A stretch of 64,000 bases of DNA from an uncultured Planctomycetota bacterium (GTDB lineage: Bacteria > Planctomycetota > CAZGEP01): positions 5,591-69,590 of the forward strand of contig CAZGEP010000002.1 of assembly GCA_964524955.1 (NCBI GenBank). The letters run 5' to 3'. The notes under the pieces were generated by a model. The model made no database searches. It saw only the letters and a program-made list of their open reading frames with translations, and was not told where the DNA came from. Each line of letters opens with the position of its first letter. Positions within the stretch are counted from its first letter, which is position 1. Positions 10,502 through 28,581 of this stretch are shown one piece after another. The position numbers and the translations under genes were made by a program.

Positions 10502-11186
10502 TATTTTTTCTCCTACAATAAAAAGTGTAAAACATTTCATGTGGCAACCCGGCTGCCTTTATTCAAAAAGGCCCGTGGCTTTGCGTATCCGCTAAACATA
10601 CGGACTTGCCTTTAGCACATTTTCCACAAAAAACATTTTACTTCAAAACATCTATATTAATTTCACTCATAAAGAGCAAAACCGGTTTTTCTCTCATTAT
10701 CTATACCATCTCCTCTCAGGTTCGACAGTCCGTCATCACCTCCTTTCCTGGACCCGAATCCGCTCCTTGGCCCTTCTCAGACCATGCCTGTCGGGCACCG
10801 GCTTAATGGGGCCGTGCCGACCAGCTTTGCCGGCTGTTTTTTTTATTATATTATCGTTTTCTACTTCACATAAAAACAATACACCGGCCAGAGCACATCT
10901 CTGTTTGTTGTCCATACCAGAGAGCAGGTATGGTTAAACACAAATCTATTTTATATCAAAGATCAGATACTTTAAGGTGAAAATATATTCTATGCTTCGT
11001 AAAAGTCAACAAAAAAGTTTAAATTTATTAAACAAAACCTGTTTTGTTTTTTATAAAATATAAAACATATTCTATACTATAATCGGCGTTTGTCAAGTAA
11101 ATCTTTAATTTTTTTTACAGGGAAAGTGTAGAACCGATGCTGTATGCATCTGGTAAAACAGGCAAAAACCCTTCATTTGAACGCTT

Positions 11187-14452: not shown

Positions 14453-15301
14453 GTGTCTGATTCATGCATTGATATTCAGAATATTGCATACAAGGAAGCC
14501 GGGCCTGATTATCACACGCGTCCGCACAGAAAAAAAGATGCCCTGCAATGGTATTGCGTGGTATATGGCAGGGTGGATATGGTTGTGGATGACATCTCCA
14601 CTATTCTCAATCCCGCAGATGCGATCCTGATCCATGCGTCATCTGTACGCTCTCCCTGCTGTCTGGACAGCCAGGCGCCTGGATATCTGATATCCGATTT
14701 CATCAACCACTCCCTTGCGCTGGACTCAATCATAAATCGCAGAATTCATGTTCCAGCGGAAATCCAGCCGGATTTGCGTTCTCTTGCCCAGGAACTTCGC
14801 GGACATCCAGAACCGGATACGCTTGAACTGACCCTGGCGCTTCTGATCCGAATCCTTATCGGGCTCTGCCGCACATCAGAAACCGATTCTTCAACCACCT
14901 TATCGCTCAATGCCGGCCATCATCACGAAATCATCCGGCGGGCCGAAGTCTTTATGCGCAGAAATCTCCACCGTCCGCTTTCCCGCAGCGATATTGCCCG
15001 AAGCGTACATTTCTCCGCCCCTCATCTGGCCCGGATTTTCCGCTCACACACCGACAAAACCGTTACCGAACGCTTAACCGAACTTCGCGTCACCCGGGCC
15101 AAGCAGCTTTTGCTGGAAACCACTATGCCCATCACACAGATATGCTTTGACGTGGGATATGATTCGTTCAGCCATTTCAGTAAAGTCTTTAAGGGCCATG
15201 TCGGAGTCCGGCCGTCCGATTACCGAAAAAGCGAAGGCATGGTATGGCGAAATGAAAGCATAAAAAACAGGGATACGTTTATTGAGGATTCATCATCTTA
15301 A
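14453..15301 (+). CDS. AraC-family transcriptional regulator
   Basis: C-terminal ITQICFDVGYDSFSHFSKVFKGHVGVRPSDYRK is an AraC HTH. Divergent from the 11.2-14.2 kb catabolic genes. Confidence 0.85.
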   Translation: MSDSCIDIQNIAYKEAGPDYHTRPHRKKDALQWYCVVYGRVDMVVDDISTILNPADAILIHASSVRSPCCLDSQAPGYLISDFINHSLALDSIINRRIHVPAEIQPDLRSLAQELRGHPEPDTLELTLALLIRILIGLCRTSETDSSTTLSLNAGHHHEIIRRAEVFMRRNLHRPLSRSDIARSVHFSAPHLARIFRSHTDKTVTERLTELRVTRAKQLLLETTMPITQICFDVGYDSFSHFSKVFKGHVGVRPSDYRKSEGMVWRNESIKNRDTFIEDSSS

Positions 15302-16032
15302 AGCTGCATCAACAGCTTGATTATTTCCAGATGAACCTCCATGGTATGTGTGACAATCAATGAATTCTGCAATAGTCCGATGTGTATTCCCTTTCGTTCC
15401 CAGCTCCCCGGTCGAACGGTTGCCTTTATCTTTTCCACAATATCATCCTTATCAAGGTCTTGCTCTTCTTCCCGACCATTAAAATCCATAATCTCAACTC
15501 CGCCGCCGTCCTTGTTTCCCACAGAAGTTAAATCCATCTTCGGGGCTGGAAAGTCTTTTATTTTAATCAGATAAGGGGAAAGGTCATGTATTCGGGTAAC
15601 TGTTCTGCCAGGATATTTTTCCCTGGTTGTGATATAAACAGCACTGTCCACCAGCTTGTACTTGACATCCGCAAGTTTGCATATCCAGTCCAGCGCCACC
15701 TTGACCTTGACATTTTTCAGTGACAGGCTTATGGGCGGCGGGTTTTGTTTGTATACATCCGGGTCCACAACAATATTGATTTTTGTAATTTCCCGCAGCA
15801 GATGAATGGCATCCTTTAAGGGAGTTTCCCGAAATACAATTCCCTTACTCGTTTTTTTTGTTTTAACTATGATGTTTTTATTATGGTCTGCAGGTACAGG
15901 CGTTTCGTTTTTTTCGTTTTTTTGTTTTACACCGGATTGATTTGGCCCCGGTTCTGTCTTTCCCGTATCTTCGCTGAATACGATAGCTACGCTCAAGCAC
16001 AAAACACACAGACAAGCTGTCCGCTTTGTCAT
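15298..16032 (-). CDS. secreted protein with a secretin-N/STN-like domain pattern, no pore domain
   Basis: Signal peptide. ETPLKDAIHLLREITKINIVVDPDV...ISLSLKNVKVKVALDWICKLADVKYKLVDSAVYITT matches the pattern of N-terminal domains of secretins and STN domains. 244 aa. Pattern-based call only. Confidence 0.45.
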   Translation of the reverse strand: MTKRTACLCVLCLSVAIVFSEDTGKTEPGPNQSGVKQKNEKNETPVPADHNKNIIVKTKKTSKGIVFRETPLKDAIHLLREITKINIVVDPDVYKQNPPPISLSLKNVKVKVALDWICKLADVKYKLVDSAVYITTREKYPGRTVTRIHDLSPYLIKIKDFPAPKMDLTSVGNKDGGGVEIMDFNGREEEQDLDKDDIVEKIKATVRPGSWERKGIHIGLLQNSLIVTHTMEVHLEIIKLLMQL

Positions 16033-16071: not shown

Positions 16072-16509
16072 TTATTTGAGAATTGAAACAAAACAACCCG
16101 GGCCGTTTCCGCCTCGGATCTCGGTGTTGTCATCGGAAGCAAGTACTTTGGCAACATGCACGGTGACTGTGACTTCATTTTCCATGCCGTCATTTACCGT
16201 AATATAATCTTTCACGCGGTTTTCGTCACCAGCGGTATATATCAGCTCAAAGCCCTGGCTCTCGGCTTCATACGTACTTTCGCCCACAACGTTCCAAAAA
16301 TACGCACCACTGGCACTTCCCTGAGCTACAAATGTAATGGTCTGGGCCGGAAAGGCAAAAACCTCCTCCACCGGTTCACTGAGGTCTGTACCGTTTCTGG
16401 TCTTGATCACCAGATTCGATGTCTGTGCCTGGGCGGAATAAAAGGTGCAGAAAAAAAACCCCACAATTACACTAACCACAAAGGCTGTAATAATGACTCT
16501 TGTTTTCAT
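16072..16509 (-). CDS. small secreted protein: signal peptide, one Ig-like module, GCF tail
   Basis: Start set at MKTRVIITAFVVSVIVGFFFCTFYSAQAQ, because the longer ORF would overlap the upstream gene. Contains GSASGAYFWNV, similar to the G-x-x-PYSW repeats of the giant protein. Ends GGNGPGCFVSILK. Confidence 0.55.
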   Translation of the reverse strand: MKTRVIITAFVVSVIVGFFFCTFYSAQAQTSNLVIKTRNGTDLSEPVEEVFAFPAQTITFVAQGSASGAYFWNVVGESTYEAESQGFELIYTAGDENRVKDYITVNDGMENEVTVTVHVAKVLASDDNTEIRGGNGPGCFVSILK

Positions 16510-16534
16510 TGACCTGCTTGCCTCGATCAAAGGT

Positions 16535-17434
16535 TTATTCAGAGCATACACGGATAAAGCAGCCTGAGCCGCTGCCCGGCAGCTGATTGCCCTGTCTGTC
16601 TGATCCCGAAATCCTGTAAATGGTGTCATCTCCGGACTGGCCGGCAAACGTGGAAATCGCAGTTGCACTGGAAAGTTCGTTCGCGTCATACGTCGTTCCC
16701 TGCGTACTGTCTTCATTTTCCAGCCCGATCAGAGGTATGGGGCCGCCCCAGCTGTTTTCATAATCGTCGTCATCGCCTGTGTCATCTGTTTCAGAATCAT
16801 CGTCTTCATTTACCAAAGCGAAATTCGGAATATTCTTATACTGCATGGTCACATCACCGCTTTCGTGGAGAATCACCTGAAACGTCAGATAATCGTCATT
16901 GTCCCAGCCCCACCACCAGTAAAAATACCGGACTGAATCCCAGGTCACCACAAACATTTTACCGCGTTCGGCATCCTCAATGGTTTCGTATACCAGTGCA
17001 CCACCGGTAATTACCAGGTCATCCCAGTATACTGCAACAGTTGCGTGCGGTGCGCCGAGATTGGGCAGATCTCCGGGCGTAATATATGATGTAACCCCCT
17101 GCACATAATCTCCCAGCGTGAGCAGACCGTTGGATCCGATATTGACCCGGCTGTACTCCCTGCCGTAAAAATTAAATGTAAAACCAATATCAACACGAAG
17201 CTGGGCCGAATCATCGCCCAGACTGGTCAGGTTTGCATTTGGATTATAGAAAACGGGCTCTTCGTGGTCCACCCAGTCATATCCAGTAGCCTGCAGGACC
17301 ATGCTGTTTTCCTGCTCCTGCTGTTCCTCCTGCTGCTCAACGTCATCCTCTTCATTTTCAAACTGGCTGAATACAGGTCCGGAAAAGAAACAAACAATGG
17401 CCAGGGAAAGAAATAGAGTGATGTACTTTTTCAT
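16535..17434 (-). CDS. secreted acidic protein with a NIDO-like FxFxFYG...NG pattern and GCF tail
   Basis: Signal peptide MKKYITLFLSLAIVCFFSGPVFSQ. IGFTFNFYGREYSRVNIGSNGLLTLG resembles the nidogen-type motif. Two poly-acidic stretches. Ends PGSGSGCFIRVCSE. Confidence 0.6.
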   Translation of the reverse strand: MKKYITLFLSLAIVCFFSGPVFSQFENEEDDVEQQEEQQEQENSMVLQATGYDWVDHEEPVFYNPNANLTSLGDDSAQLRVDIGFTFNFYGREYSRVNIGSNGLLTLGDYVQGVTSYITPGDLPNLGAPHATVAVYWDDLVITGGALVYETIEDAERGKMFVVTWDSVRYFYWWWGWDNDDYLTFQVILHESGDVTMQYKNIPNFALVNEDDDSETDDTGDDDDYENSWGGPIPLIGLENEDSTQGTTYDANELSSATAISTFAGQSGDDTIYRISGSDRQGNQLPGSGSGCFIRVCSE

Positions 17435-17487: not shown

Positions 17488-17533
17488 AAAAACACAAAAA
17501 CACCTGTTGCCTTCGTGAGCAGAAGGCAACAGG
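17488..17533 (-). terminator. Rho-independent terminator downstream of the giant gene
   Basis: On the minus strand, CCTGTTGCCTTC-tgctcac-GAAGGCAACAGG (12-bp stem) followed by TGTTTTTGTGTTTTT, about 30 nt after the stop at 17564. Confidence 0.7.
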
Positions 17534-17563
17534 TATGGGTTCTGATTTTTGATCCGTCCGTGA

Positions 17564-20500
17564 TTATTTCCGAAGCGCACCGATAAAGCAGCCGCCTCCA
17601 GTGCTGCTGCCGCCAGTCTTGGTGCTGGTTCCGGAAGCACCGCTCAGTACACGGATGGTAATCTGCTTGGTCTCCAGGGTAACATTGTCCATAACCTCAA
17701 CCACATCGATCTGCCGGTCTTCGCTGCCCGATGAGTAGGTTACGGAGGAACCGCCGGATGCGTCAATGGAGCATCCCGAGGCATTGGTCACAATGGTCCA
17801 GCTGTAGGATCCGCTGCCGCCCATGGCATAGAGCAGGATAGTCGCGGACAGCCCCACGGTCACTTCTTCCGGATAGACCCGGAATTCACCGCCAATGGTT
17901 CCTGAACCGCCGGTCTGGACAATCACACTCAATGAGAAGGTGTTGTCTGCAGAATCCGTAATCGTGATGGTATCCCCTCCTTCGGTGGCACCTGCGATAT
18001 ACGTGACCTGATTTCCAGTGGTTCCGGAAAGACTGGCACCGGACGCATTCGTACTCACGCTCCAGGAGTAAGGTGCAGTGCCGCCGCTGGCGCCCAGAAT
18101 CAGCGATCCGCCCGGATCCACACTGGTCATGGCCGGAGTGCTGGTAAAGGTCTCGGACATATTCGAGGATGTATCGACCGCAGTCAGGGTGATCACGGAT
18201 TCTTCATCTCCGGTTCCGCCTTCACCGCCTTCACCGTCTTCCTCGCCGGCACCACCCGGATCGGATGTACCGCCGGACTTGACCGGTATTTCAACAACGA
18301 TTTCCACACCAATGTTGTCGTAAACCGTGAGCAGGATCTTGGTTCCGTCCTCACCCACGGTTTCAGAATCCGGAGTGGTGTACGTGAAGCTGTCACCGGT
18401 TGCATCTGTTTCATCCAGGTCGCCGATGTACCATGTGTACGGTGAAATACCACTGTCCGCGCTGAAGACCAGTTCCGTGGAAGGTGCTACCGGCGGAGTG
18501 ATCAGGTACTTATTAGTAGCGGTCTCTTCCATGGTCAGGGCTTCTCCGGATACGGATACAGTAAACAGGGAATTTATAAATGTGGTGTTGTATATTTCTC
18601 CGTATTTATACACTGTATTTCCGTGCTTGAATACCACATCATCCTCCTTGACACCCACTGTAAAGACGTCCTTGTTTTCCGTGTAATTACTGGTGGTGAT
18701 GGTCACGAAGAAATCATCGCCCATGTCCGGGTCTGCGGTTGTACCGGAGGTATTGTCGTCCACGGAAAGCGGGATAATCGGAATCGAGTACGCTTTTCCG
18801 GCTGTACCGTCGGCCGTCTCCCAGACCTCGCCGTCTCCGTTTGCGTCAATGCCGCTGTAAATTTTGGCATCCACACCGTTATCATAGGTACCGGTAGTCC
18901 CGGCTGCAGCATCCGACCAGATTTCTTCATTGATATCCCAGCGTCCATTGCTGTTGCTGTCGTAATAGTAGGTAATCGACGGATTGGGCAGACTCATGGT
19001 AACCTTGCCGAACGACCATACCGGGGTCTGCATGAACATCACCGGTGTATCATAGGGCTGTTCATCCGGATCAAAGACACCGTCGCCATCAGCATCATCC
19101 CATGTGGTTTCGCCGATATCAAACTGTCCGTCACCGTCTGCATCATTCCAGTCGAATTTACCGTTATCATAGGCGCCGCCGTTGTCCGCGTCTTTCCAGA
19201 GAGCGACTCCGCTGATCGTTGAATCCGCTTTCAGCTCTTGGAAGTCCGCGGATGTGACATTACCGGCACCCGCGTCCATAATCCGAACGGAAAGGGTGTC
19301 CAGATAAACAGACGTGCCATCGTCTTCTTTGGCGCCCAGGTTCATGCCGAACGCAGCAAATGTCGTGTTCTTGCTGATGGAGTTTCCGCCCAGATAGTCG
19401 GTAAAGAATATGGGCACATTTCCGTCCAGTTCGCGGGTCACAAATTCAGACAGCCCGGTAATACCGCTGGACATGTACACGCCTTCATTCGGGATCGTGA
19501 ACCGGATCTTGTCCGTAAAACGCATGTTTGCGCTGGTCTTGATGCACACAAACATATCCGACCCTTCATTGTCCTGCTTGTCATCAATGGGAACCAGCAC
19601 ACCATTGGGAAAGAAGACGTCTGTAAGGTAATACTCATGGTACACCTTACCCGGCGTTCCACCGGCCGTGTCCCAATCATCTCCATCACCGTTGACATCG
19701 GTTCCAGCATTGATCTGAATGTCAATGTCGGCATCGTATATACCATTGGTACCGGCCACCGAGGAATCCAGCCAGACTTCCTCCCCCGTATCCCAGCGGC
19801 CGTTGGCATTGGCATCATAATAGTATTTCTTGCCGTATTTGCGGACAAAGTCCTGGCCGTACCGCTGGATATCATCAGCAGCATTTTCGACCAGATCCCA
19901 GTCAGTAAATATGTAATTCAGACGGTCGTCTGCTGTATCCCAACGGCCGTCTTCATTGCCGTTGTCAAAGTAGAAGAGCAGCCCCGAATCCGTGGAAGCG
20001 CCAGTCAGATCGGCGAGAAAGGCCGTCATATCCAGCGGATCATTATTGGCATCCACATCATCCAGTACCCCGTCGTCATTCGCATCCGGTTCGACCTTGA
20101 TTCCCTGAACCATCAGCCGTATCTTTTCGACCTGCAAGTCCTGGGACGTAACATTCGCGTGCCGCATGTTAAAGGCGATCAGATCATACCGGGAACTGTT
20201 TACATCAATCCGGTCACCGGACGGAACCAGGTCTGCGATTTCTATCAGAACTTCCACACCCAGGATTTCACCGTCTTCGACCATGACATTGCCGCTGTAC
20301 GCTGTCAGTCCTGTGGTCATAAAAGCAAACTTATCGCCTTTCTCAAAGGGAGCGCTCGAATCCGTATTCCGGATAAGAAATACCATTTCGTTGTCATCAC
20401 TCGCGTACATCTTTCCGGTTGTTGCGCGTCCGCTCTGCAGGCCGGAAAGCGTACCCCGAACCTCCCATTCCTGGGTGGTTTCATCCACCATCTTTACAAT

Positions 20501-23500
20501 CCAGGTCTCAAGCTTGGAGCCTTCGCCGTATTTGCTCAGATAATCCACATGGGTCACATACAGACTGCCCACGCCTGCGGCACCATCCATAAGCCGCGGC
20601 TTGGTGTGCGACCGCAGATCCAGAGATACATGTTCATCAAATACGGTTACCGGCAGTCCCTGTGTACCGTTGGCTGTGGTCCATCCGTCCGTACCGATAT
20701 CGATCTGAATATCGCCGTCTGCACTGTTGTACACGCCGAACGGATCCTGGTCCATCCAGATATCCTCGGTTGCATCCCGTGTTTCATTTCCGTTTGCATC
20801 GTTAAAAAACCGGTTTGTGATCGAACCGCCGCCTGGCTGATCCGGACTCTTCTGCGGAACCAGACGGGCATAGAAATAGTTGTTGCCTTCATTGAGGGAG
20901 TTCTCATTCACATATTGATCCATTTCCACGTCCTTGGGTTTTTTGCGCACACCCGTACTGTACGCATAATAACTGTCAAAGCCGATGGTACCGTCTGCTG
21001 TACCCCACACCCGATCATCACTGTCATTGTTCGGAATGCCAGTATACAACTGGTTTTCACCGGTGTTATACCGGCCGTCTCCATTCTCATCCAACCAGAT
21101 ATCCTCATCCGCAGTCCAAACCCGGTCCACGGTTGAATCATTGAAAAGAATGGGAACGCCGCCCACTTCATACCGTTCATCCGTGCTGTCCCAGGTAGCA
21201 CCAAGGGGAGCGCTGATGGTCTGCAGGCATGTACCGTCATACCCCAGGTCATTGGTGTCCATGTAAAAGAACATGCGGACTGAACCGAACACATCATAGG
21301 CATTGTACTTGACCTTGTAGACGCCGTTTACTGTACTGCCACCCGGCGGATGAATAAAGCTCAGGGTCGGAATGGTCTTGGGATCCATGAAAAAGGTTAC
21401 AATGGCCGGTGCCAGCGGGTCTGCGGGCAGATCAATGTCAAGAATCTCAATGCCGCTGGGTGTCTGGTCCCACCACCGGTTCATGGGATCGGTATTGGGC
21501 CCGAACTGGTGCTTGGATGCACCGCCGTCATTTATATAATCAGATCCACCGGGAAAGATATCACCGTCATCCCCAAGATTATACCCGGCTTCAAGCTGTT
21601 CCAGGGCATCGGCCTGCACAATATTCCATGTAAAGTGATTGCCCTTACGCTGCTGCTGCGGAACCCCTTCAGCGTTTGCATCCGCATCCGTATGCAGGAT
21701 CATGATGCCCTGCTTGGGATCATCCGGTGAGCCGCGCGTGGGATCCAGCACCTGAAATCCCAGACCGGACCGATACCAGAAGTAATAATCCTCATTCGGA
21801 TAGTTCTGATTCTTAAAATGATAGTACTGGTTTTTGATGTATTCCACTGGATCCATGTGAACCTCCTGGGGCACGCCTGGAATCAGGATCGTGGCCAGGT
21901 CATTGGATTCCGTCCAGTTCTGACTCATCTTGAGAAACGGCATAGAATGAACCAGCACCGCAGCTGACATCAGGTCAAAAAGACCAATGGGCCAGTTGAT
22001 TATCACACCGTTCCACACATCATAGTCATACAAATCCGGCCAGCCGAACCAGTAATGGCCGAACTCATGGGCTGTGATTGACCGTGAATAGTCCTGATAC
22101 CAGTCGTCGTCACTTACGACCGCTTCTTCGGAACCTTCCGCGCCTGCGCCGTGTCCACAGACCCAGTCTGAATAACCGAACACATTATCACTATCCACGG
22201 TAAACACAGAGTACGTAGCCGGTGCTATTGGCGCGAAGTCACTGTCGGCATCAATAAGGGCCGTGGTATTGATGTGGCTGCCGTCACCCAGGGCTGCAAA
22301 CCGGTCGTAATCCAGTGCATCGTCATTGGCTTCAAAGCAGTCCTCCATCAGCCGCGTCCGATGCATGGGATAGATGGTCTGGACGCCATCGTCAACAGTC
22401 AAGGGATCCAAATCCACTGAATAGTTCATGCATCCTCGAATCGGACACTCACCCAGATCGATAAACCCGTCCAGATTGATGTCCCGGTACTGGCTCTGAA
22501 ATCCCAGCGGTGAACCTACATCCGCTGTGGCATTCAGAAGGCTTGCTCCGTCTGTTCGCCAGGTCTGAATTTCCAGGTTGGTCATGTTTGCTGAATCATG
22601 ACCGGTCTCTCCGTACAGGTTATACGCCAGCGGACCGCCGGAATAGACAATATCATCGGTAAACGGGCTTCCCGGATTATTATCCTCGGTATGATCCGCT
22701 CCATGAAGAACCGTGGAAAAGGGATCGGTCTCTTCGCCCAGCCAGCCGTCGCCATGCCCGGTAAAGTGACCAGGCTGAGTTGTATGATAAAGTGCGGATG
22801 CCAGATCATAGTACTCGGGAGGGCCGGACCAGCGACCTGCATTAATAATCGGTGCATCCGCATAATCCGCATAATCCGCTTCATTGGATCCCTTGGTATG
22901 ACCTCTACTGGGGCTGAAACCCCGGATCTCTGCTTCTCCGTCTGCAACCGTAGCCATGATCGGAACTTGATTCCACCATGACCCCCCAGACGGCCATAAA
23001 GGCGCTGAAGAGGTATAATCGACAGAGCTGAACTGCCGAGTCCACCAGTCTGTCCAGTCACCGTCACTGTATTTGGTGCGATCCCATATTTCTATATCGG
23101 AAAAAAAATCCGGATGCAAACCACTTACCGCACCGGGCCATAAAACGCCGGGAAAAGGATCCCATCCGGTAATGCGAACTTTTGTCTGACCACTGAATCC
23201 TGCCCTTTCTGACGGATCATACTGGCCGTTTCCAGAGCGCTGCATCAGGGCTCCCACATCGCCCGGATAATTGTTCCGGATATACGCGGCATCTGTCCGG
23301 ACATATCCGGGGGCCATTAACGGTACAGGACCCAGCGGACCGAACCAAATATCATCAACGATAAACGGATCCCACCTGGCCATGTAATCTTCCCAGGGAT
23401 CTTCAAAATCATATTCCACATCCCCGTCCGAATCTGTCCATATTTCCGGACTCTCATAGGCATATGCAATCCTGCGCTCTGTTGCCACGGGATCGCCGTT

Positions 23501-26500
23501 GTCGTCAAAAGCACTGAAGTACTCCCAGGAAACCTCTGCCTGGGAACGGCCTCCCCCGACCTTGACCACCTCAAGAGGTTCGATAATAGGCAGCCCCGCA
23601 TTGTCCAGGGCCGGATCAAAGGTCTTGTTCAGGCCCACGCTGGCTTCGTTGTAGTATCCTTCATCATCATCTTCATCAATATCCCACCACACATCCTCAC
23701 CCGTGGTGTAGTCCAGGGATCCGTCCTCGTCATAGTAATACAACTGATCGTCACCACCTTGATCTGCGGAAATGTAGTACATGACCGGATCCTTGCCGTT
23801 GACCGGCGTTCCATAGAGCACGGTGTCAATACCATTGGCATCATAAATACCCGCGTTCTGTCCGCTGTCGTCTTTCCAGATTTCTTCGGCAACATCGGGA
23901 TAATCATTTCCGTTCAAATCATTATAAAAGAGATCACCGGAGATACCGGCTGAATACATTTCCGGGGGTTGTCCCACCCGCATGATATCGTTTACGACCA
24001 CATTGCCGTCAGCATCTATAGAACCGTATTGGCCGTCACCGTCCACATCCACCCAGATTCCGCTGTCCCACAATTCGTCCCACACGCCGTTATTATTGGC
24101 ATCATAGAAGAGCAATTTGGTCTGAATTCCTGCTGCTCCGTTCCCTGTATTCCATTCCAGCGGATCCTCAAAATCCGGATCTCCGAGAAACACCTGGGTA
24201 TCGGGTCCATTGTATTCACCGTCACTATTTTCATCAATGAATATAGCGTCTCCAACGTTGAAAACCCCGTCCAGGTTTTCGTCGTAAAAGTACAGGCCGG
24301 TCTGAATACCGGCAGTACCGTCAGCTGTAATCCATTCATCATCTCCGGCAATGCGTCTGTCTTGATACTGAACCTGGTACCGGTCTCCTTCATAAGCAAA
24401 GCCTTCGCCATCGTACAGTTTGTAATCCTTGTTCGAATCAAAGACAGCGTTGTCTACTTCATACCAGACATCATCGGTATCCGCGTCATAGGTTCCATTC
24501 AGCCGTCCTCCGTCAACAGCTGTATCATCATAAAACACGTTCCAGGCATGTCCGTCACCACTGTATTCCGTGTCTCCGTCTCCATCATTCCAGACCTCTT
24601 CACCCAGGTCATACACCCCGTTGCTGTTGTCGTCATTGAACCGAAAGAGCGGTCCTGCGGTCCCATCGGTACCGTTTGAAGGCGCTGATCCCTTGAGTAC
24701 TGCATCGCCGACCAGGTCAAAATCACCATTACCGTTTGCATCATAAAAGACCGTCTCTGCTGTATCCCAGTATCCGTCTGAATCCAAATCCACAAAAAGC
24801 AGGTCTCCATCCTGGACCCCTACGGTTTCCAAGGGGGTTTCCCAAATACCGTTGCCTCCAGAATAGATTTGTGTATCCACGGAAATTACATACGCCCAGG
24901 CACTGTCTGTGGCTGCATCAAATCCGGCACCACCGTCATCGTCAATCCAGAGATTCGTATTCTTTATCTTGATTCCACTGTCCCCGTCCTCCAGGTTCGT
25001 GGCCAGAATCGGCACGTCATCCGCGTCTCCACCGCCACCGTCATTATTGTACTGACCAAAGGTTCCTTCAACCTCCTGCCAGATTCCTTCACCTTCGTCC
25101 CAGTACCCGTTGTCATTTGAATCTTCAAAGTAGTAGATGTCAGCTTGAGAACCGGCATCGCCCGCATTCAAGCCGCTTCCCTCACGAATAACATAGTCTG
25201 TAGCCTGATACGTTCCCGTTCCTTTCAGAGAGCCGGCAACCATGATATCCTCGTCATAGGTAAAAGACGAGTCTCCGCTGACTTCAAACCACACGGTCTC
25301 TCCGCTGTTGTACTGGCCGTTTCCATTGGCATCCAGATACATGAAACCGTTGTTCAGGCCCACATCTCCGTGCCGGAGACTGCCCATATTGACCAGCATC
25401 TGCATGCTTTCATCCGAGTCATAGATCCCGTCCACGTCCAGCCAGATATCCTCGTAATATTCAGTATAGCCATCCGCATTGTCGTCGTTAGGACCAATGA
25501 TCCCGCCACCTTCATAGTCTGTATCCCCGTCACCGCCGTCTTCAACGTCCGCAGCTCCCATGGCAAAATACATGCCGTTATTTATACCGGAAAAGAGGTT
25601 GGGAAAGTTCTTGATCCGCCATCCATTGCCACCGTCAAAAAGCAGGATGTCTGTTGCATCATATATACCGGCAAGGCCTGTTTCATCTCCAGTTGTTGCA
25701 TCATAATCATCGGCGTCCGGATGACAATAATCCAGCCAGATATCTTCACCTGCAGTATAGATACTGTTGCCGTCTTCGTCATAAAAGTATATCTTGTTGT
25801 TGCTTCCAGTGGTTCCGTTGGTTGTTGTCCAGTCCAGCGGAAAGTCGGAAAGATCAATAATGTAATTCTTGTATCTGGGAATGTAAAGTTCATTGAGAAA
25901 GATCAAACGGTTGACTCCATTGTTCTTGTCTGCGACCGTGATCGTAACAATCCCGGAGTACTGACCGTCCTCATTGTAATCCACGAATGCCTCGCCATGG
26001 GTATCCCACTCCCCCTTACGGGCCGGATACTGCGGATTGGAGTTACTCAAAAAGGTTTCTTCTCCACCCTTTCCCATGTCATAATGCCTGCCGTTTCCAT
26101 CTACATAAGCGTAGCAGTCATACCACGGTTCCGGACCGTTCCACGAACCGTTTCCATTCAGATCCTTGTACCGCTCACCGGGTGTAAAGGCATTGTCAGC
26201 GATCTGGGTATCGGCAAATCCAGCGGAGGCCCCATACTCGAATAATAAGGAGTCGTTCAGGTCAATAAAACCGGTTTCCCGGGCAATGGGCCAGGGCATG
26301 GCAATCCATGCCGGCACTTCAGCATTAACGATTTTTTCCACGCCATAGGAATTTTCCACCAGCCATTCATGCCATGACCCGCCGTATATATCCGGAACCA
26401 CACCTTCGGAAAACCACATGTCTTCAATGGCCTTACGGTTGGGCAGCTCCGTGGCCGTGGTGCTGCCGCCGCTCTTGGGAACGGTTGCCAGAAAAAGGAT

Positions 26501-26590
26501 AAAATTCCTGTCTGCGGCAAAAAGAGAAGATGCCAGGGTTGTTAAAAACAAGACTAATAACACTGAAAGGGTCAGCCGTTTCATTTCCAT
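17564..26590 (-). CDS. giant (3008 aa) secreted multidomain protein: split M6/InhA-like metalloprotease, many EF-hand-type Ca loops, C-terminal Ig-like repeats, GCF tail
   Basis: Uninterrupted 9-kb ORF with signal peptide MEMKRLTLSVLLVLFLTTLASSLFA. HEFGHYWFGWPDLYD at aa 1508. Repeated D-x-N-x-N-G-x-[WY]-D-x-x-E loops. Three G-x-x-PY[ST]W modules. All opposite-strand ORFs are low-complexity shadows. Confidence 0.9.
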   Translation of the reverse strand: MEMKRLTLSVLLVLFLTTLASSLFAADRNFILFLATVPKSGGSTTATELPNRKAIEDMWFSEGVVPDIYGGSWHEWLVENSYGVEKIVNAEVPAWIAMPWPIARETGFIDLNDSLLFEYGASAGFADTQIADNAFTPGERYKDLNGNGSWNGPEPWYDCYAYVDGNGRHYDMGKGGEETFLSNSNPQYPARKGEWDTHGEAFVDYNEDGQYSGIVTITVADKNNGVNRLIFLNELYIPRYKNYIIDLSDFPLDWTTTNGTTGSNNKIYFYDEDGNSIYTAGEDIWLDYCHPDADDYDATTGDETGLAGIYDATDILLFDGGNGWRIKNFPNLFSGINNGMYFAMGAADVEDGGDGDTDYEGGGIIGPNDDNADGYTEYYEDIWLDVDGIYDSDESMQMLVNMGSLRHGDVGLNNGFMYLDANGNGQYNSGETVWFEVSGDSSFTYDEDIMVAGSLKGTGTYQATDYVIREGSGLNAGDAGSQADIYYFEDSNDNGYWDEGEGIWQEVEGTFGQYNNDGGGGDADDVPILATNLEDGDSGIKIKNTNLWIDDDGGAGFDAATDSAWAYVISVDTQIYSGGNGIWETPLETVGVQDGDLLFVDLDSDGYWDTAETVFYDANGNGDFDLVGDAVLKGSAPSNGTDGTAGPLFRFNDDNSNGVYDLGEEVWNDGDGDTEYSGDGHAWNVFYDDTAVDGGRLNGTYDADTDDVWYEVDNAVFDSNKDYKLYDGEGFAYEGDRYQVQYQDRRIAGDDEWITADGTAGIQTGLYFYDENLDGVFNVGDAIFIDENSDGEYNGPDTQVFLGDPDFEDPLEWNTGNGAAGIQTKLLFYDANNNGVWDELWDSGIWVDVDGDGQYGSIDADGNVVVNDIMRVGQPPEMYSAGISGDLFYNDLNGNDYPDVAEEIWKDDSGQNAGIYDANGIDTVLYGTPVNGKDPVMYYISADQGGDDQLYYYDEDGSLDYTTGEDVWWDIDEDDDEGYYNEASVGLNKTFDPALDNAGLPIIEPLEVVKVGGGRSQAEVSWEYFSAFDDNGDPVATERRIAYAYESPEIWTDSDGDVEYDFEDPWEDYMARWDPFIVDDIWFGPLGPVPLMAPGYVRTDAAYIRNNYPGDVGALMQRSGNGQYDPSERAGFSGQTKVRITGWDPFPGVLWPGAVSGLHPDFFSDIEIWDRTKYSDGDWTDWWTRQFSSVDYTSSAPLWPSGGSWWNQVPIMATVADGEAEIRGFSPSRGHTKGSNEADYADYADAPIINAGRWSGPPEYYDLASALYHTTQPGHFTGHGDGWLGEETDPFSTVLHGADHTEDNNPGSPFTDDIVYSGGPLAYNLYGETGHDSANMTNLEIQTWRTDGASLLNATADVGSPLGFQSQYRDINLDGFIDLGECPIRGCMNYSVDLDPLTVDDGVQTIYPMHRTRLMEDCFEANDDALDYDRFAALGDGSHINTTALIDADSDFAPIAPATYSVFTVDSDNVFGYSDWVCGHGAGAEGSEEAVVSDDDWYQDYSRSITAHEFGHYWFGWPDLYDYDVWNGVIINWPIGLFDLMSAAVLVHSMPFLKMSQNWTESNDLATILIPGVPQEVHMDPVEYIKNQYYHFKNQNYPNEDYYFWYRSGLGFQVLDPTRGSPDDPKQGIMILHTDADANAEGVPQQQRKGNHFTWNIVQADALEQLEAGYNLGDDGDIFPGGSDYINDGGASKHQFGPNTDPMNRWWDQTPSGIEILDIDLPADPLAPAIVTFFMDPKTIPTLSFIHPPGGSTVNGVYKVKYNAYDVFGSVRMFFYMDTNDLGYDGTCLQTISAPLGATWDSTDERYEVGGVPILFNDSTVDRVWTADEDIWLDENGDGRYNTGENQLYTGIPNNDSDDRVWGTADGTIGFDSYYAYSTGVRKKPKDVEMDQYVNENSLNEGNNYFYARLVPQKSPDQPGGGSITNRFFNDANGNETRDATEDIWMDQDPFGVYNSADGDIQIDIGTDGWTTANGTQGLPVTVFDEHVSLDLRSHTKPRLMDGAAGVGSLYVTHVDYLSKYGEGSKLETWIVKMVDETTQEWEVRGTLSGLQSGRATTGKMYASDDNEMVFLIRNTDSSAPFEKGDKFAFMTTGLTAYSGNVMVEDGEILGVEVLIEIADLVPSGDRIDVNSSRYDLIAFNMRHANVTSQDLQVEKIRLMVQGIKVEPDANDDGVLDDVDANNDPLDMTAFLADLTGASTDSGLLFYFDNGNEDGRWDTADDRLNYIFTDWDLVENAADDIQRYGQDFVRKYGKKYYYDANANGRWDTGEEVWLDSSVAGTNGIYDADIDIQINAGTDVNGDGDDWDTAGGTPGKVYHEYYLTDVFFPNGVLVPIDDKQDNEGSDMFVCIKTSANMRFTDKIRFTIPNEGVYMSSGITGLSEFVTRELDGNVPIFFTDYLGGNSISKNTTFAAFGMNLGAKEDDGTSVYLDTLSVRIMDAGAGNVTSADFQELKADSTISGVALWKDADNGGAYDNGKFDWNDADGDGQFDIGETTWDDADGDGVFDPDEQPYDTPVMFMQTPVWSFGKVTMSLPNPSITYYYDSNSNGRWDINEEIWSDAAAGTTGTYDNGVDAKIYSGIDANGDGEVWETADGTAGKAYSIPIIPLSVDDNTSGTTADPDMGDDFFVTITTSNYTENKDVFTVGVKEDDVVFKHGNTVYKYGEIYNTTFINSLFTVSVSGEALTMEETATNKYLITPPVAPSTELVFSADSGISPYTWYIGDLDETDATGDSFTYTTPDSETVGEDGTKILLTVYDNIGVEIVVEIPVKSGGTSDPGGAGEEDGEGGEGGTGDEESVITLTAVDTSSNMSETFTSTPAMTSVDPGGSLILGASGGTAPYSWSVSTNASGASLSGTTGNQVTYIAGATEGGDTITITDSADNTFSLSVIVQTGGSGTIGGEFRVYPEEVTVGLSATILLYAMGGSGSYSWTIVTNASGCSIDASGGSSVTYSSGSEDRQIDVVEVMDNVTLETKQITIRVLSGASGTSTKTGGSSTGGGCFIGALRK
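22055..22069 (-). other. zinc-binding HEFGH motif of the M6-like protease domain
   Basis: The reverse complement reads CAT GAG TTC GGC CAT, within ITAHEFGHYWFGWPDLYDYD. Compare the InhA-type HEFGH-x4-PDEY. Confidence 0.8.
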
Positions 26591-26761: not shown

Positions 26762-28507
26762 TTATTCATCAACTTTTTCCCTGCTGATTCCCCTGATTTT
26801 ATTGATAACCTCCTCCACCGACCTTCTGTACCTGGAGTTGGTTAACTTCTTCAAAGCCGGGAGTGCGGATTCGGCATCCTGGCCCATCTCGCCGAGCGTC
26901 ACCAGGCTCATTAGAAATATTTTTTCATAACGTCTTTTATAGGAATAAGATAGCGTCTCGGTCAGCATGGGGATTGTCTCTTTTGCCTCTGCTCCGATGT
27001 TCTTGATTACATGAATCACGCGTCTGCATAAATAGTGTTTTTTCGGATCCGTGACCTCATACAGTTCCTGCAGCCTGGGGATTGCCTTTCTTCCAGCGAT
27101 TTTGGCAATGGCGTATCCTGCTGCGCCGGCCTGAGCATCCGAGGCTGCCTCATTTTTCAATATCTGGAAAAGGGTATCCAGTGCAGGTGAGGCTGCCTCA
27201 CCTATGGTTGCCAGGACCAGGGCTGCTTTTTTCTGGACCTCGATATTGATATCATTCAGCCGTTTGAGTACGGAATCCAGAACGTCTTCCATGGGTTTTC
27301 CGATAACAGCCCCGGCACTCAATGCAGAGAGGCGCATCACAGGGTCGGAGTGATTGAGCGCGGAGCGAAAAACATCCTTGTCAATCCGCTGAATATCCCT
27401 CAGGGCGTAGGCGGATTCCTCACGGATTTTCTTATGCAGGCTTTTAATTGCAGCTTCTGAAAGCATACGGATGCCCTGCGGCGTGCATTTGCCAAAAGCG
27501 CCCAGTGCGGAAAGAATCATTTTTTTGCGTATATAGGTCGCGTCCTTGTATGCGTTAACCAGCAATGGGACTGCGGGAAAGCCGTCTTTGCCGGTCTGCT
27601 TGAGTTGTTCGCAGGTGCGGATGGCTGCGGTGTCATCCGCTGTATGAAGAACCAGATCCGCCAGCGCAATCACGGATTCCCGGCTCCGAACCGCTGCAAA
27701 AACCCGGGTAATGCGTTCTGCCAGCCGAGGAAACTTCTTGTAGTCTTTTTTCAGTTTTTCAACTGGAATATCCCGAACCCCGGCACTCAAGGCCGCATCC
27801 AGCGCATATCCCAGTATCTTACGGCTCCGGCTCTTTTCAAGGATCGCAAAAATAGAGGGTTCAGCGCCGGAAACCGGTCCAAGATTCGACAAAATCTGCA
27901 AAAAGTGTCTTTTTTCAATCCTGCCCTTGGTATACAGGGGCAATATTTCACCAAATACCTGTTGACCGTACCCGGAATATCTGGACAGCATTACAACCGC
28001 CTGTTCTTTTTTGAGCAGATTCTTGCCGATCAGTTCGTGGACATGCTGTGCAATGATCCGGTTTCGTCTTTTTTCAATTTCATCGGGAAGTGCGTATCCT
28101 TTCTTGATTTTGCCGATCGCGGCAATCGCAGACCGGGCCACGGTTTCATCCTTGTCCTGCGCTGCTTTCAGGAGAAGCGGAATGTTATTTTCCGAAGCCG
28201 CTCCAAGTTCACCCAGAACATACGCGGCCTTCTCCCGAACCAATGCGTTTTTATTCAATACCAATGGGGCGATCTCTTCGGCAACCAGATCCTTCATTTT
28301 CATGTCAATCAGGTTCAGTGCCGCCTTCTGGCGGATTCGCGGGTCGGCATCGGAAAGCTGTTTTACAAATTCACGAATTTTCTGCCGGTATGCCTGTATG
28401 TATTCCTTTTCTTTGGCTGCGTTTGCTTTTTTTTTCTCCACTGCATACAGAAACGGAAGCTGAAAACAAATCAATATCAGGCAGATGAAACGGAACGTTT
28501 TTTTCAT
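26762..28507 (-). CDS. HEAT-repeat protein with N-terminal signal/anchor
   Basis: Start set at MKKTFRFICLILICFQLPFLYA. Repeated DPRIRQKAALNL / NALVREKAAYVLGELG / EVQKKAALVLATIGEAA units typical of HEAT (PBS-lyase-type) repeats. Confidence 0.7.
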   Translation of the reverse strand: MKKTFRFICLILICFQLPFLYAVEKKKANAAKEKEYIQAYRQKIREFVKQLSDADPRIRQKAALNLIDMKMKDLVAEEIAPLVLNKNALVREKAAYVLGELGAASENNIPLLLKAAQDKDETVARSAIAAIGKIKKGYALPDEIEKRRNRIIAQHVHELIGKNLLKKEQAVVMLSRYSGYGQQVFGEILPLYTKGRIEKRHFLQILSNLGPVSGAEPSIFAILEKSRSRKILGYALDAALSAGVRDIPVEKLKKDYKKFPRLAERITRVFAAVRSRESVIALADLVLHTADDTAAIRTCEQLKQTGKDGFPAVPLLVNAYKDATYIRKKMILSALGAFGKCTPQGIRMLSEAAIKSLHKKIREESAYALRDIQRIDKDVFRSALNHSDPVMRLSALSAGAVIGKPMEDVLDSVLKRLNDINIEVQKKAALVLATIGEAASPALDTLFQILKNEAASDAQAGAAGYAIAKIAGRKAIPRLQELYEVTDPKKHYLCRRVIHVIKNIGAEAKETIPMLTETLSYSYKRRYEKIFLMSLVTLGEMGQDAESALPALKKLTNSRYRRSVEEVINKIRGISREKVDE

Positions 28508-28581
28508 AATTCGTTGTCTCTCAACAAAAAGTCTGCAATTGAGTGCCACACGTATTTGTAGGCGTTAAAAACAGGTTTCCT

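What the first reader, a model, noticed from the sequence alone, without database searches (positions are those of the whole stretch)
17564..26590. Giant 3008-aa secreted protein with an M6 (InhA-like) metalloprotease domain apparently split by about 1400 aa of inserted repeats
The N-terminus (aa 27-110, nt 26261-26512) reads RNFILFLATVP...SWHEWLVENSYGVEKIVNAEVPAWIAMPWP. This matches the start of M6/immune-inhibitor-A domains (beta-strand, then ..YY.E.S.G......V..W). The catalytic HEFGHYWFGWPDLYD and the following GLFDLMS do not appear until aa 1508 (nt 22055-22069). In canonical M6 enzymes these segments are about 150-250 aa apart. The intervening region and much of the C-terminal 1400 aa are filled with calcium-loop repeats. 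A single uninterrupted 9-kb ORF with its own terminator argues against assembly artefact or pseudogenisation.
Basis: partly seen in the sequence, partly recalled or inferred. Interest (0 to 1): 0.75.

Follow-up and report, generated by a model that had tools for sequence, protein, structure and literature searches.

The report
Giant protease with split catalytic domain
This 3008-residue secreted bacterial protein appears to be a zinc protease of the InhA/M6 type whose catalytic domain is interrupted by about 1300 inserted residues, a layout shared by an unannotated family of a few hundred giant proteins, mostly from Planctomycetota.

Summary
Pfam, NCBIfam and PDB sequence searches find nothing in the protein itself.

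Profiles built from its few relatives link it to Peptidase_M6 (PF05547) proteins at E down to 3e-19 in a 5.8-billion-protein database. They match as two colinear pieces. Giant aa 27-102 align to the start of the M6 catalytic domain. Giant aa ~1403-1734 align to the rest. Canonical M6 proteins have about 11 residues between these pieces; the giant has about 1300.

The insert is not all repeats. About 520 aa form a conserved, family-specific module (216 hits among 1.84 billion representatives). About 770 aa are 12 acidic calcium-loop-like repeats, expanded only in this lineage. In 108 relatives the N-module-to-HExxH distance is 488-2106 aa.

Structure prediction was inconclusive, so physical packing of the two halves is inferred, not shown.

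Verdict: a real feature, and a new variant of a known kind (an M6-like metalloprotease with a nested insertion).

The parts
26516..26590 (-). Signal peptide, aa 1-25 (MEMKRLTLSVLLVLFLTTLASSLFA). The first M6 beta-strand follows directly, with no pro-segment.
   Evidence: Read from the sequence: a basic n-region, a hydrophobic core and an FA|AD junction. No signal-peptide predictor was available. PF05547 proteins carry 60-90 aa before the equivalent strand.
26285..26515 (-). N-module, aa 26-102. This is the first piece of the M6-like catalytic domain: beta-strand RNFILFLATVP, helix AIEDMWF, SWHEWLVENSYG, then strands ending in AMPWP.
   Evidence: The family N-module profile hits the start of the M6 domain in 7 of 7 PF05547 proteins. 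hhalign gives probability 96.5% and E 7e-10. It is colinear stretch 1 in 11 of 12 M6 proteins. MAFFT aligns it there unaided. The HMM-to-giant map places it at aa 27-102.
25817..26284 (-). Insert part A, aa 103-258. A conserved family-specific segment with the invariant TPGER(F/Y)xD motif and a DYNEDGQY loop.
   Evidence: Conserved in P0002-P0005 and P0008-P0014. It forms part of insert profile A6, which finds only 216 proteins among 1.84 billion.
23504..25816 (-). Lineage-specific repeat expansion, aa 259-1029. About 12 acidic calcium-loop-like units with core YFYDxNxNGxWDxGExIWxD.
   Evidence: An iterated repeat HMM finds units at aa 268-982. The region is absent from P0003 and P0004. The distance from WTPGERF to PEPFEDF is 52-283 aa in other members, 928 aa here and 1602 aa in the orthologue. 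There is no Pfam or PDB match and no DNA tandem repeat.
22427..23503 (-). Insert part B, aa 1030-1388. A conserved family-specific module with motifs NYPGDxxAL, GPPEYxDLxSxxYH, GPLAYNxYG and RDxNLDGxIDxGE.
   Evidence: Invariant columns in alignments A2, A3 and A6. It has no counterpart in canonical M6 proteins. There is no Pfam hit.
21389..22426 (-). Second piece of the M6-like catalytic domain, aa 1389-1734. It holds the backing helix YPMHRTRLMEDC, the active-site helix with H1508-E1509-xx-H1512, D1519 in PDLYDYD, M1541 in DLMS, and the ADxxxQLE / GDDGDxFPG region.
   Evidence: The family profile matches PF05547 proteins at E 1e-12 to 3e-19. It is colinear stretch 2. An M6 profile hits giant aa 1501-1725 at 62 bits. 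H, E, H, D, LYD and M are invariant across the family plus M6 proteins.
22019..22069 (-). Zinc-binding and catalytic motif HEFGHYWFGWPDLYDYD, aa 1508-1524.
   Evidence: The same H(+7)D spacing occurs in PF05547 proteins P0015-P0020.
21197..21388 (-). Conserved post-catalytic segment, aa 1735-1798 (PTLSFIHPPGG...YNAYDVFG...). Probably a beta-sandwich domain.
   Evidence: Conserved to the end of the core alignment in all family members. The fold is inferred from beta-strand predictions.
17636..21196 (-). C-terminal stalk, aa 1799-2985. It holds six more calcium-loop units (aa 1815, 1928, 2206, 2256, 2481, 2541), interspersed beta-rich modules, and three ~90-aa repeats of the type GG(T/S)xPYSW at aa ~2690-2985.
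   Evidence: Repeat HMM and the translation. No Pfam hit reaches its cutoff.
17567..17635 (-). C-terminal tail ...GGSSTGGGCFIGALRK, a CFI-box-type putative sorting motif.
   Evidence: NF041763 sort_motif_CFI scores 15.7 bits against a cutoff of 15.9. The orthologue's tail scores 18.8 bits.
17500..17536 (-). Terminator-like hairpin followed by a T-run, downstream of the stop codon.

Best explanation
The gene encodes a giant, very acidic, exported zinc metalloprotease. Its catalytic domain is a divergent member of the M6 (immune inhibitor A) lineage and carries a nested insertion.

After the signal peptide, the chain makes the first strand-helix-strand elements of the protease's N-terminal subdomain (aa 26-102). 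It then leaves through what is a ~11-residue surface loop in ordinary M6 enzymes and runs through ~1290 residues. These comprise a conserved family-specific module in two parts (aa 103-258 and 1030-1388), and between those parts a lineage-specific expansion of about 12 calcium-loop-like repeats (aa 259-1029). The chain then returns to supply the backing helix, the remaining strands, the HEFGH active-site helix, the Asp ligand, the Met-containing segment and the C-terminal subdomain (aa 1389-1734).

A ~1250-aa stalk of further repeats and Ig-like modules follows, ending in a short Gly-Gly-Gly-Cys-Phe-Ile tail (CFI-box), which probably directs sorting or anchoring.

Shown: homology of both pieces to M6, their colinearity, the insert boundaries, family-wide conservation of the split, and conservation of the catalytic residues. 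Inferred: that the two pieces pack into one fold, that the enzyme is active, that the repeats bind calcium, and that the tail is a sorting signal.
For: Both halves are homologous to M6.
- Core profile A2 retrieves PF05547 proteins at E 1e-12 to 9e-7.
- Adding the N-module and six further family sequences (profile A3) raises P0021 from 46 to 85 bits and gives E 3e-19 to 2e-11.
- With profile A3, 11 of 12 PF05547 proteins show two colinear stretches, for example P0021 residues 61-129 and 141-449. These map to giant aa 27-102 and 1403/1406-1734.
- The N-module profile alone hits the correct place in 7 of 7 M6 proteins.
- hhalign of 137 N-modules against the M6 catalytic alignment gives probability 96.5% and E 7e-10.
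- The reverse search finds only aa 52-103 and aa 1501-1725 in the giant.
- MAFFT reproduces the split alignment unaided.

The curated model agrees. TIGR03296 hits natural relatives in two stretches. When the insert is excised from P0010 and P0014, it aligns continuously over profile positions 15-240.

The split is family-wide. In 108 members the N-module sits at the N-terminus and HExxH lies 488-2106 aa further on; the giant's gap is 1404 aa. At least 108 loci were found in GTDB species genomes, mostly Phycisphaerae.

H1508, E1509, H1512, D1519, Y1521, D1522 and M1541 are invariant.

The orthologue has identical synteny but a longer repeat block.

The excised mini-domain model has pTM 0.68, N-module pLDDT 70-83, and a strand/helix order expected for a metzincin N-terminal subdomain.
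Against: - No curated model (PF05547, TIGR03296) reports any hit to this protein, whole, in segments, or with the insert excised.
- No PDB sequence hit was found, even with the family profile.
- The N-module scores are modest when taken one at a time: 6-32 bits.
- The 1006-aa model that kept the conserved insert was unusable, with pLDDT 39.6.
- The mini model found no Foldseek match to InhA (4YU5) or anything else; the best E was 2.1.
- The mini model's alignment already placed the N-module under the M6 rows, so it is not independent evidence.
- No coordinates or PAE could be inspected, so contact between the two halves was not demonstrated.
Confidence: 0.8

Rival explanations
1. The N-terminal segment only resembles the start of M6 domains and is in fact a separate small domain, for example a family-specific leader or adaptor. 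On this view the functional protease fold is built entirely from aa ~1030-1734, with insert part B supplying the missing strands.
For: The individual N-module scores are low (6-32 bits). Curated models do not see the N-module in the giant. Insert part B is conserved and of unknown fold. Structural confirmation failed.
Against: The match falls at the right position, in the right order and over the whole element in nearly all M6 proteins tested. hhalign gives E 7e-10. Excised relatives align continuously to TIGR03296 positions 15-240. The N-module is always present and always N-terminal in full-length family members. No alternative N-module-like segment exists elsewhere in the giant.
Confidence: 0.1
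2. The domain is a catalytically dead protease-like scaffold, and the protein is essentially a giant calcium-binding adhesin. NCBI recognises inactivated M6-like proteins (NF052323).
For: The protein is extremely acidic and repeat-rich, with D+E at 17.6%. The catalytic domain is heavily diverged and is not recognised by curated models. NF052323 (M6-like inactivated metalloprotease) matches 11 members of the mixed alignment of related M6 proteins and excised family constructs.
Against: HExxH, the catalytic Glu, the downstream Asp and the Met segment are invariant across 11 family members, and also across the family plus M6 proteins. That is the pattern of purifying selection on an active site.
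Confidence: 0.08
3. The long ORF is an assembly chimera, a gene fusion artefact or a decaying pseudogene.
For: The protein is unusually long and has no database annotation.
Against: The frame is uninterrupted over 9 kb. There are no DNA tandem repeats. A syntenic orthologue is found on independent ENA and Logan contigs. More than 100 relatives have the same layout.
Confidence: 0.01

Closest known systems
Immune inhibitor A / MEROPS family M6 (Pfam PF05547 Peptidase_M6, NCBIfam TIGR03296; InhA of Bacillus, PDB 4YU5/4YU6; M6 is listed in subclan MA(M) in PMC3890501)
   Same: It shares the HExxH motif followed by G-x-P-D-x-Y-D, and the downstream (W/F)xLMS segment. It shares the N-terminal strand / helix / YYxExSYG element and the late ADGxxxLE...GDxGDPFPG region. 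The order of all elements is the same. Profile similarity reaches E 3e-19.
   Different: The catalytic domain is interrupted by ~1290 aa where M6 proteins have ~11 aa. There is no pro-segment ahead of the first strand. Scores fall below, or miss entirely, the curated cutoffs. The family profile does not reach the InhA sequence in the PDB. The protein is 4-7 times longer.
Uncharacterised Phycisphaerae/Planctomycetota proteins annotated as 'thrombospondin type 3 repeat-containing protein' or 'hypothetical protein' (P0008, P0010 and ~200 clusters at 50% identity)
   Same: They have the same family-specific insert module and the same split of the M6-like domain. They also have the same conserved post-catalytic segment.
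   Different: They are only 26-39% identical to the giant. Most are 1650-2400 aa with a 490-1000-aa gap. They have few or no calcium-loop units at the expansion site. They end in a long Cys + TM helix + Arg-rich tail of MYXO-CTERM type rather than the short CFI-box tail.
Proteases and other enzymes with domains nested in a catalytic domain, such as PA domains in subtilases and M28 peptidases (my own knowledge), or the metallopeptidase inserted into flagellin (PMC5595980, seen)
   Same: The principle is the same: one domain is inserted into a surface loop of another, so the host domain is discontinuous in sequence.
   Different: Known nested inserts are typically 100-300 aa. Here the insert is 490-2100 aa, is itself composite, and carries a hot spot for repeat expansion.
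Giant calcium-binding repeat adhesins (RTX adhesins, LapA-type; my own knowledge)
   Same: Both are very large and very acidic, with Dx(D/N)xDG-type loops in tandem units, and are exported with a specialised C-terminal signal.
   Different: The repeat has no detectable relation to the Pfam EF-hand, FG-GAP, VCBS or TSP_3 models searched, nor to any other Pfam-A model. The N-terminus carries a Sec-type signal. The protein also contains a protease domain.

Membership tests
MEROPS M6 / Pfam PF05547 / TIGR03296 | Score at or above the curated cutoff of PF05547 or TIGR03296. | tested here: not met
   There were no hits for the whole protein, for 7 segments, or for the insert-excised construct. Relatives reach 24-62 bits against a cutoff of 110.8.
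MEROPS M6 / Pfam PF05547 / TIGR03296 | Significant sequence-profile relationship to bona fide PF05547 proteins across the catalytic domain. | tested here: met
   E values range from 3e-19 to 2e-11 in a 5.8e9-sequence database. An M6 profile scores 62 bits on aa 1501-1725.
MEROPS M6 / Pfam PF05547 / TIGR03296 | Zinc site HExxH plus a downstream Asp in GxPDxYD, and a conserved Met segment. | tested here: met
   H1508, E1509, H1512, D1519, Y1521, D1522 and M1541 are invariant in the family and in the joint alignment with M6 proteins. The His-to-Asp spacing of +7 is also seen in P0015-P0020. Metal binding itself was not tested.
MEROPS M6 / Pfam PF05547 / TIGR03296 | Canonical N-terminal element of the catalytic domain (beta-strand, helix, YYxExSYG, strand, W..lP). 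| tested here: met
   (probability 96.5%, E 7e-10).
MEROPS M6 / Pfam PF05547 / TIGR03296 | A catalytic domain contiguous in sequence, with ~165-210 aa from the first strand to HExxH. | tested here: not met
   The distance is about 1480 aa in the giant. The N-module-to-HExxH gap is 488-2106 aa in 108 relatives.
MEROPS M6 / Pfam PF05547 / TIGR03296 | Fold similarity to the InhA crystal structure (4YU5). | tested here: inconclusive
   The AF2 models had pLDDT 39.6 and 63.2. Foldseek against the PDB returned nothing better than E = 2.1.
MEROPS M6 / Pfam PF05547 / TIGR03296 | Zinc-dependent endopeptidase activity. | not testable with these tools
   This needs a biochemical assay.
CFI-box putative sorting motif proteins (NCBIfam NF041763) | A C-terminal motif scoring at or above 15.9 bits. 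| tested here: inconclusive
   The giant's tail scores 15.7 bits, just under the cutoff. The orthologue P0002 scores 18.8 bits and the downstream neighbour 13.4 bits.
EF-hand / FG-GAP / VCBS / TSP_3 calcium-binding repeats | A match of the repeat units to the Pfam models. | tested here: not met
   There was no Pfam hit at E <= 10 for aa 259-1029 or for other segments. A PDB profile search gave only a chance-level hit at E 0.008.

The most novel reading that the evidence does not exclude
The nested insert may be a built-in regulator that replaces the missing propeptide. The two halves of the catalytic domain would be held apart until the acidic calcium-loop repeats and the conserved insert module fold in the calcium-rich exterior, as happens with RTX proteins. 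Folding would bring the insert's two ends together and so assemble the active site only after export. Variation in repeat number between orthologues (12 versus ~24 units) would then tune reach or activation. Alternatively, the conserved ~520-aa module may be a new substrate-capturing domain placed directly over the active-site cleft.
Probability: 0.15. Interest if true: 0.75.

Novelty: new variant of a known kind. Interest (0 to 1): 0.55.

Why it matters
If the reading is right, one of the largest known domain-within-domain insertions sits inside a protease catalytic fold. It has been tolerated and conserved across a few hundred protein clusters in Planctomycetota and their relatives. Current annotation misses the catalytic domain: the giant gets no Pfam or NCBIfam hit, and its relatives reach only sub-threshold TIGR03296 scores and are named for their repeats or called hypothetical.

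It would give a defined new family for MEROPS and Pfam. It would offer a natural system for asking how a discontinuous catalytic domain folds and is kept latent without a propeptide. It would also explain a class of giant surface proteins in a poorly studied phylum.

It is not a new kind of enzyme. The chemistry and core fold are those of a known metallopeptidase family.

Tried and rejected
- Pfam and NCBIfam on the whole protein and on seven segments at E <= 10 gave nothing relevant.
- phmmer against PDB sequences gave nothing.
- The family profile A3 against the PDB gave nothing. Only the mixed alignment dominated by M6 proteins (A5) reaches InhA 4YU5.
- AlphaFold2 was run on a 1006-aa construct (aa 24-258 + 1030-1800) with an 18-row alignment. 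Mean pLDDT was 39.6, so it was unusable. In that alignment the M6 rows were also misaligned over the N-module.
- AlphaFold2 was run on a 483-aa insert-excised construct. It was moderate (pLDDT 63, pTM 0.68), but Foldseek against the PDB found no match. I had no access to coordinates or PAE.
- The third homologue search, with A3, returned only M6 proteins and no new family members.
- The repeat unit, searched against Pfam and PDB, gave no meaningful hit.
- Tandem Repeats Finder on the gene found no DNA-level repeats.
- Taxonomic placement through cluster names yielded no names.
- The literature search found no paper on this family or on the CFI-box, and the InhA structure paper is not held.
- I considered assembly chimera and pseudogene and rejected both. 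I also considered a complete M6 domain lying at aa 1300-1750 and rejected it.
Full report
**Observation**

The window holds one uninterrupted ORF at 17564-26590 on the minus strand, encoding 3008 aa. It has a single HExxH, at aa 1508, in the motif HEFGHYWFGWPDLYDYD, followed by NWPIGLFDLMS. The N-terminus reads as a Sec-type signal peptide (aa 1-25) followed directly by RNFILFLATVP...SWHEWLVENSYG...AMPWP.

A hairpin with a T-run lies 28 nt after the stop codon. There are no DNA-level tandem repeats in the gene. The protein is very acidic: D+E is 17.6% and K+R is 4.9%.

**Direct annotation fails**

Pfam and NCBIfam report nothing for the whole protein or for seven overlapping segments, even at E <= 10. 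A phmmer search of PDB sequences also finds nothing. The M6 assignment therefore cannot be read from standard tools and had to be built through relatives.

**Relatives and the map of conservation**

A search of 5.8 billion proteins with the whole sequence found only six hits.
- P0002 is a 55%-identical, 3784-aa orthologue.
- P0003, P0004 and P0005 are distant relatives with HExxH at positions 763, 1011 and 1440.
- P0006 and P0007 share only the repeats.

The orthologue sits in the same gene order: ParA, ParB, response regulator, CCA-adding enzyme, HEAT-repeat protein, the giant gene, three small genes, AraC, and onwards. This excludes an assembly artefact.

Pairwise BLAST shows that giant aa 1-218 align with P0004 aa 6-213, and that giant aa 1032-1200 continue directly at P0004 aa 218-386. 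Hence aa ~259-1029 of the giant are extra relative to P0004 and P0003. All five proteins carry the same N-terminal module and an invariant TPGER(F/Y)xD motif.

**Link to M6**

A profile of the conserved core (aa 1030-1800 and equivalents, alignment A2) retrieved seven more family members. These come from Phycisphaerae MAGs, are 1650-1860 aa long, and are annotated 'thrombospondin type 3 repeat-containing' or 'hypothetical'. The same profile also retrieved seven proteins whose precomputed Pfam domain is PF05547 Peptidase_M6, at E 1e-12 to 9e-7.

A profile that also contained the N-module (A3) returned only PF05547 proteins, at E 3e-19 to 2e-11. P0021 rose from 46 to 85 bits.

**The split**

Run locally, the family N-module profile matches the start of the M6 catalytic domain in all seven PF05547 proteins, always at the expected position.

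The A3 profile gives two colinear stretches in 11 of 12 PF05547 proteins. In P0021, for example, residues 61-129 match profile positions 5-76 and residues 141-449 match positions 605-926. Mapped onto the giant, these are aa 27-102 and aa 1406-1734. The canonical protein therefore has 11 residues where the giant has about 1300.

Other tests agree.
- MAFFT on its own places trimmed M6 catalytic regions under giant aa 24-100, then opens one long gap, and resumes at ...NYSVDLD...IYPMHRTRLMEDC (aa ~1389-1420).
- hhalign of 137 family N-modules against an alignment of 11 M6 catalytic regions gives probability 96.5% and E 7e-10. It pairs giant aa 26-102 with the first 13-82 columns.
- In the reverse direction, an M6 profile finds only aa 52-103 (7.7-13.4 bits) and aa 1501-1725 (62 bits) in the 3008-aa protein. 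Nothing N-module-like lies near aa 1300-1500.

The curated model TIGR03296 hits the natural relatives P0004, P0010, P0013 and P0014 at 24-52 bits, in two stretches. When their inserts are excised, P0010 and P0014 align in one continuous stretch over profile positions 15-240 of 286. The giant's own excised construct still gets no curated hit.

**Anatomy of the insert**

The insert has three parts.
- Part A (aa 103-258) and part B (aa 1030-1388) are conserved in all relatives. Their invariant motifs are TPGERFxD, PEPFEDF, NYPGDxxAL, GPPEYxDLxSxxYH, GPLAYNxxG and RDxNLDGxIDxGE.
- Between them lie about 12 units with the core YFYDxNxNGxWDxGExIWxD (aa 268-982). Six more such units are scattered through the C-terminal half.

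The unit has no Pfam or PDB match.

The distance between the flanking motifs WTPGERF and PEPFEDF is 52-283 aa in the other 34 members that could be scored. It is 928 aa in the giant and 1602 aa in its orthologue. The repeat block is therefore a lineage-specific expansion at a hot spot inside an older, family-wide insert.

**Size and spread of the family**

An exhaustive HMMER search of 1.84 billion representatives with the insert profile (A6) found 216 proteins at E <= 1e-3 and 166 at E <= 1e-30. Nearly all are 1500-5900 aa long. The module is therefore confined to this family.

Among the 155 sequences examined, 108 have both the N-module and the HExxH...DLYD motif. In these the N-module always sits at the N-terminus, and the gap to HExxH is 488-2106 aa with a median of 881. 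The giant's 1404 aa ranks seventh.

A scan of GTDB species genomes found 108 loci, overwhelmingly from Phycisphaerae or Planctomycetota MAGs, with a few labelled Kiritimatiellaeota or Verrucomicrobiota. The window's own organism could not be named.

**Catalytic competence**

H1508, E1509, H1512, D1519, L1520, Y1521, D1522 and M1541 are invariant in the family. H, E, H, D, LYD and M are also invariant in the joint alignment with M6 proteins. M6 is classed with the Met-zincins, subclan MA(M). In zincins the N-terminal subdomain carries the HExxH helix (PMC3890501).

It follows from established knowledge of that fold, not from my data, that the first strand belongs to the same sheet as the strands that precede the active-site helix. 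On that basis the insert splits a single structural subdomain.

**Structure prediction**

A 1006-aa construct that kept the conserved insert gave an unusable model, with pLDDT 39.6. A 483-aa construct with the insert excised (aa 24-101 + 1386-1790) gave pLDDT 63 and pTM 0.68. Its N-module blocks had pLDDT 70-83. Its element order was beta, alpha, alpha, beta, beta, alpha, beta, beta, then the HExxH helix.

However, its alignment already placed the N-module under the M6 rows. Foldseek against the PDB returned no match. I could not inspect contacts. The structural test is therefore inconclusive.

**Sorting signal and neighbours**

The protein ends ...GGSSTGGGCFIGALRK. This scores 15.7 bits against NCBIfam NF041763 'CFI-box putative sorting motif', whose cutoff is 15.9. 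The orthologue's tail scores 18.8 bits.

The two genes immediately downstream encode small signal-peptide proteins ending GSGCFIRVCSE and GPGCFVSILK. Apart from one 66-codon open frame (10673-10873, +) ending ...AGCFFYYIIVFYFT, which I take to be spurious, no other ORF in the 64-kb window has such a tail. Most Phycisphaerae relatives instead end in Cys + TM helix + Arg-rich tails of MYXO-CTERM type. M6 peptidases are known to carry C-terminal sorting signals such as GlyGly-CTERM (PMC3237569).

**Verdict**

Four things need correcting. Only about 60% of the insert is repeat. The rest is a conserved new module. The split is a family trait. Membership of M6 by curated thresholds is not met.

I file this as a new variant of a known kind, with interest 0.55. 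It is a striking architecture and an unannotated family. The chemistry is familiar, and the key structural inference is still unproven.

Noticed in passing
window 17567-17635 (-), 16535-16570 (-), 16072-16104 (-): Three consecutive genes all end in a short Gly-x-Gly-Cys-Phe-(Ile/Val) tail with only 5-7 residues after the Cys. They are the giant and the 299-aa and ~145-aa secreted proteins downstream, with tails GGGCFIGALRK, GSGCFIRVCSE and GPGCFVSILK. Apart from one 66-codon frame I take to be spurious, no other ORF in the window has such a tail. It matches NCBIfam NF041763 'CFI-box putative sorting motif' near its threshold (15.7 and 13.4 bits here; 18.8 bits in the orthologue). I found no paper on the CFI-box and no candidate sorting enzyme.
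   Followed up: partly
family members P0004-P0014 and P0027-P0169 (C-termini): The family uses two different C-terminal tails. At least 56 representatives have Cys + TM helix + Arg-rich tails, like MYXO-CTERM. P0014's C-terminal region hits the myxosortase-dependent M36 model, and P0004 and P0013 hit the MYXO-CTERM protein MtsC model. Nine of the largest members (3000-4100 aa) have poly-Gly-Cys plus 3-7 residues, for example GGGGGGCLLKP.
   Followed up: partly
window 23504-25816 (-) and units at aa 1815, 1928, 2206, 2256, 2481, 2541: The acidic repeat (core YFYDxNxNGxWDxGExIWxD, about 35-48 aa) has no Pfam or PDB match. It also occurs in unrelated giant proteins: P0006, and P0007, a Kiritimatiellaeota SUMF1-family protein. 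It may be an undescribed calcium-binding repeat family.
   Followed up: partly
window 26285-26590 (-): The first strand of the catalytic domain begins immediately after the predicted signal-peptide cleavage site. The PF05547 proteins retrieved here have 60-90 residues before the equivalent strand, and I recall (not checked here) that InhA has a propeptide. Latency, if there is any, must be achieved in another way.
   Followed up: no
P0004 aa ~620-850 and P0009 (equivalent region); P0005 aa ~1020-1440: Other family members carry different large extra segments at other points in the insert or just before HExxH. P0004 and P0009 have a ~230-300-aa segment. P0005 has calcium-loop repeats between the DxxxDF helix and HExxH. 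The domain therefore tolerates insertions at several sites.
   Followed up: no
window 15298-16032 (-): The third downstream gene (244 aa, conserved in synteny) has a weak match to the N-terminal region of secretins and to the Amuc_1098 family type IV pilus outer-membrane protein (E 1.8e-6, far below cutoff). It also has a weak match to Pfam FecR_C.
   Followed up: no
window 16072-16716 (-): The mechanical 214-aa ORF overlaps the upstream gene. The orthologous contig calls a 145-aa product, and the signal-peptide-like start MKTRVIITAFVV... is at aa 70. The real start is therefore probably near 16509.
   Followed up: partly
window 26762-28549 (-): A 595-aa HEAT-repeat protein with a signal-peptide-like N-terminus lies directly upstream. 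It is conserved in the same position next to the orthologue at 51% identity. A functional link to the giant gene is unknown.
   Followed up: no
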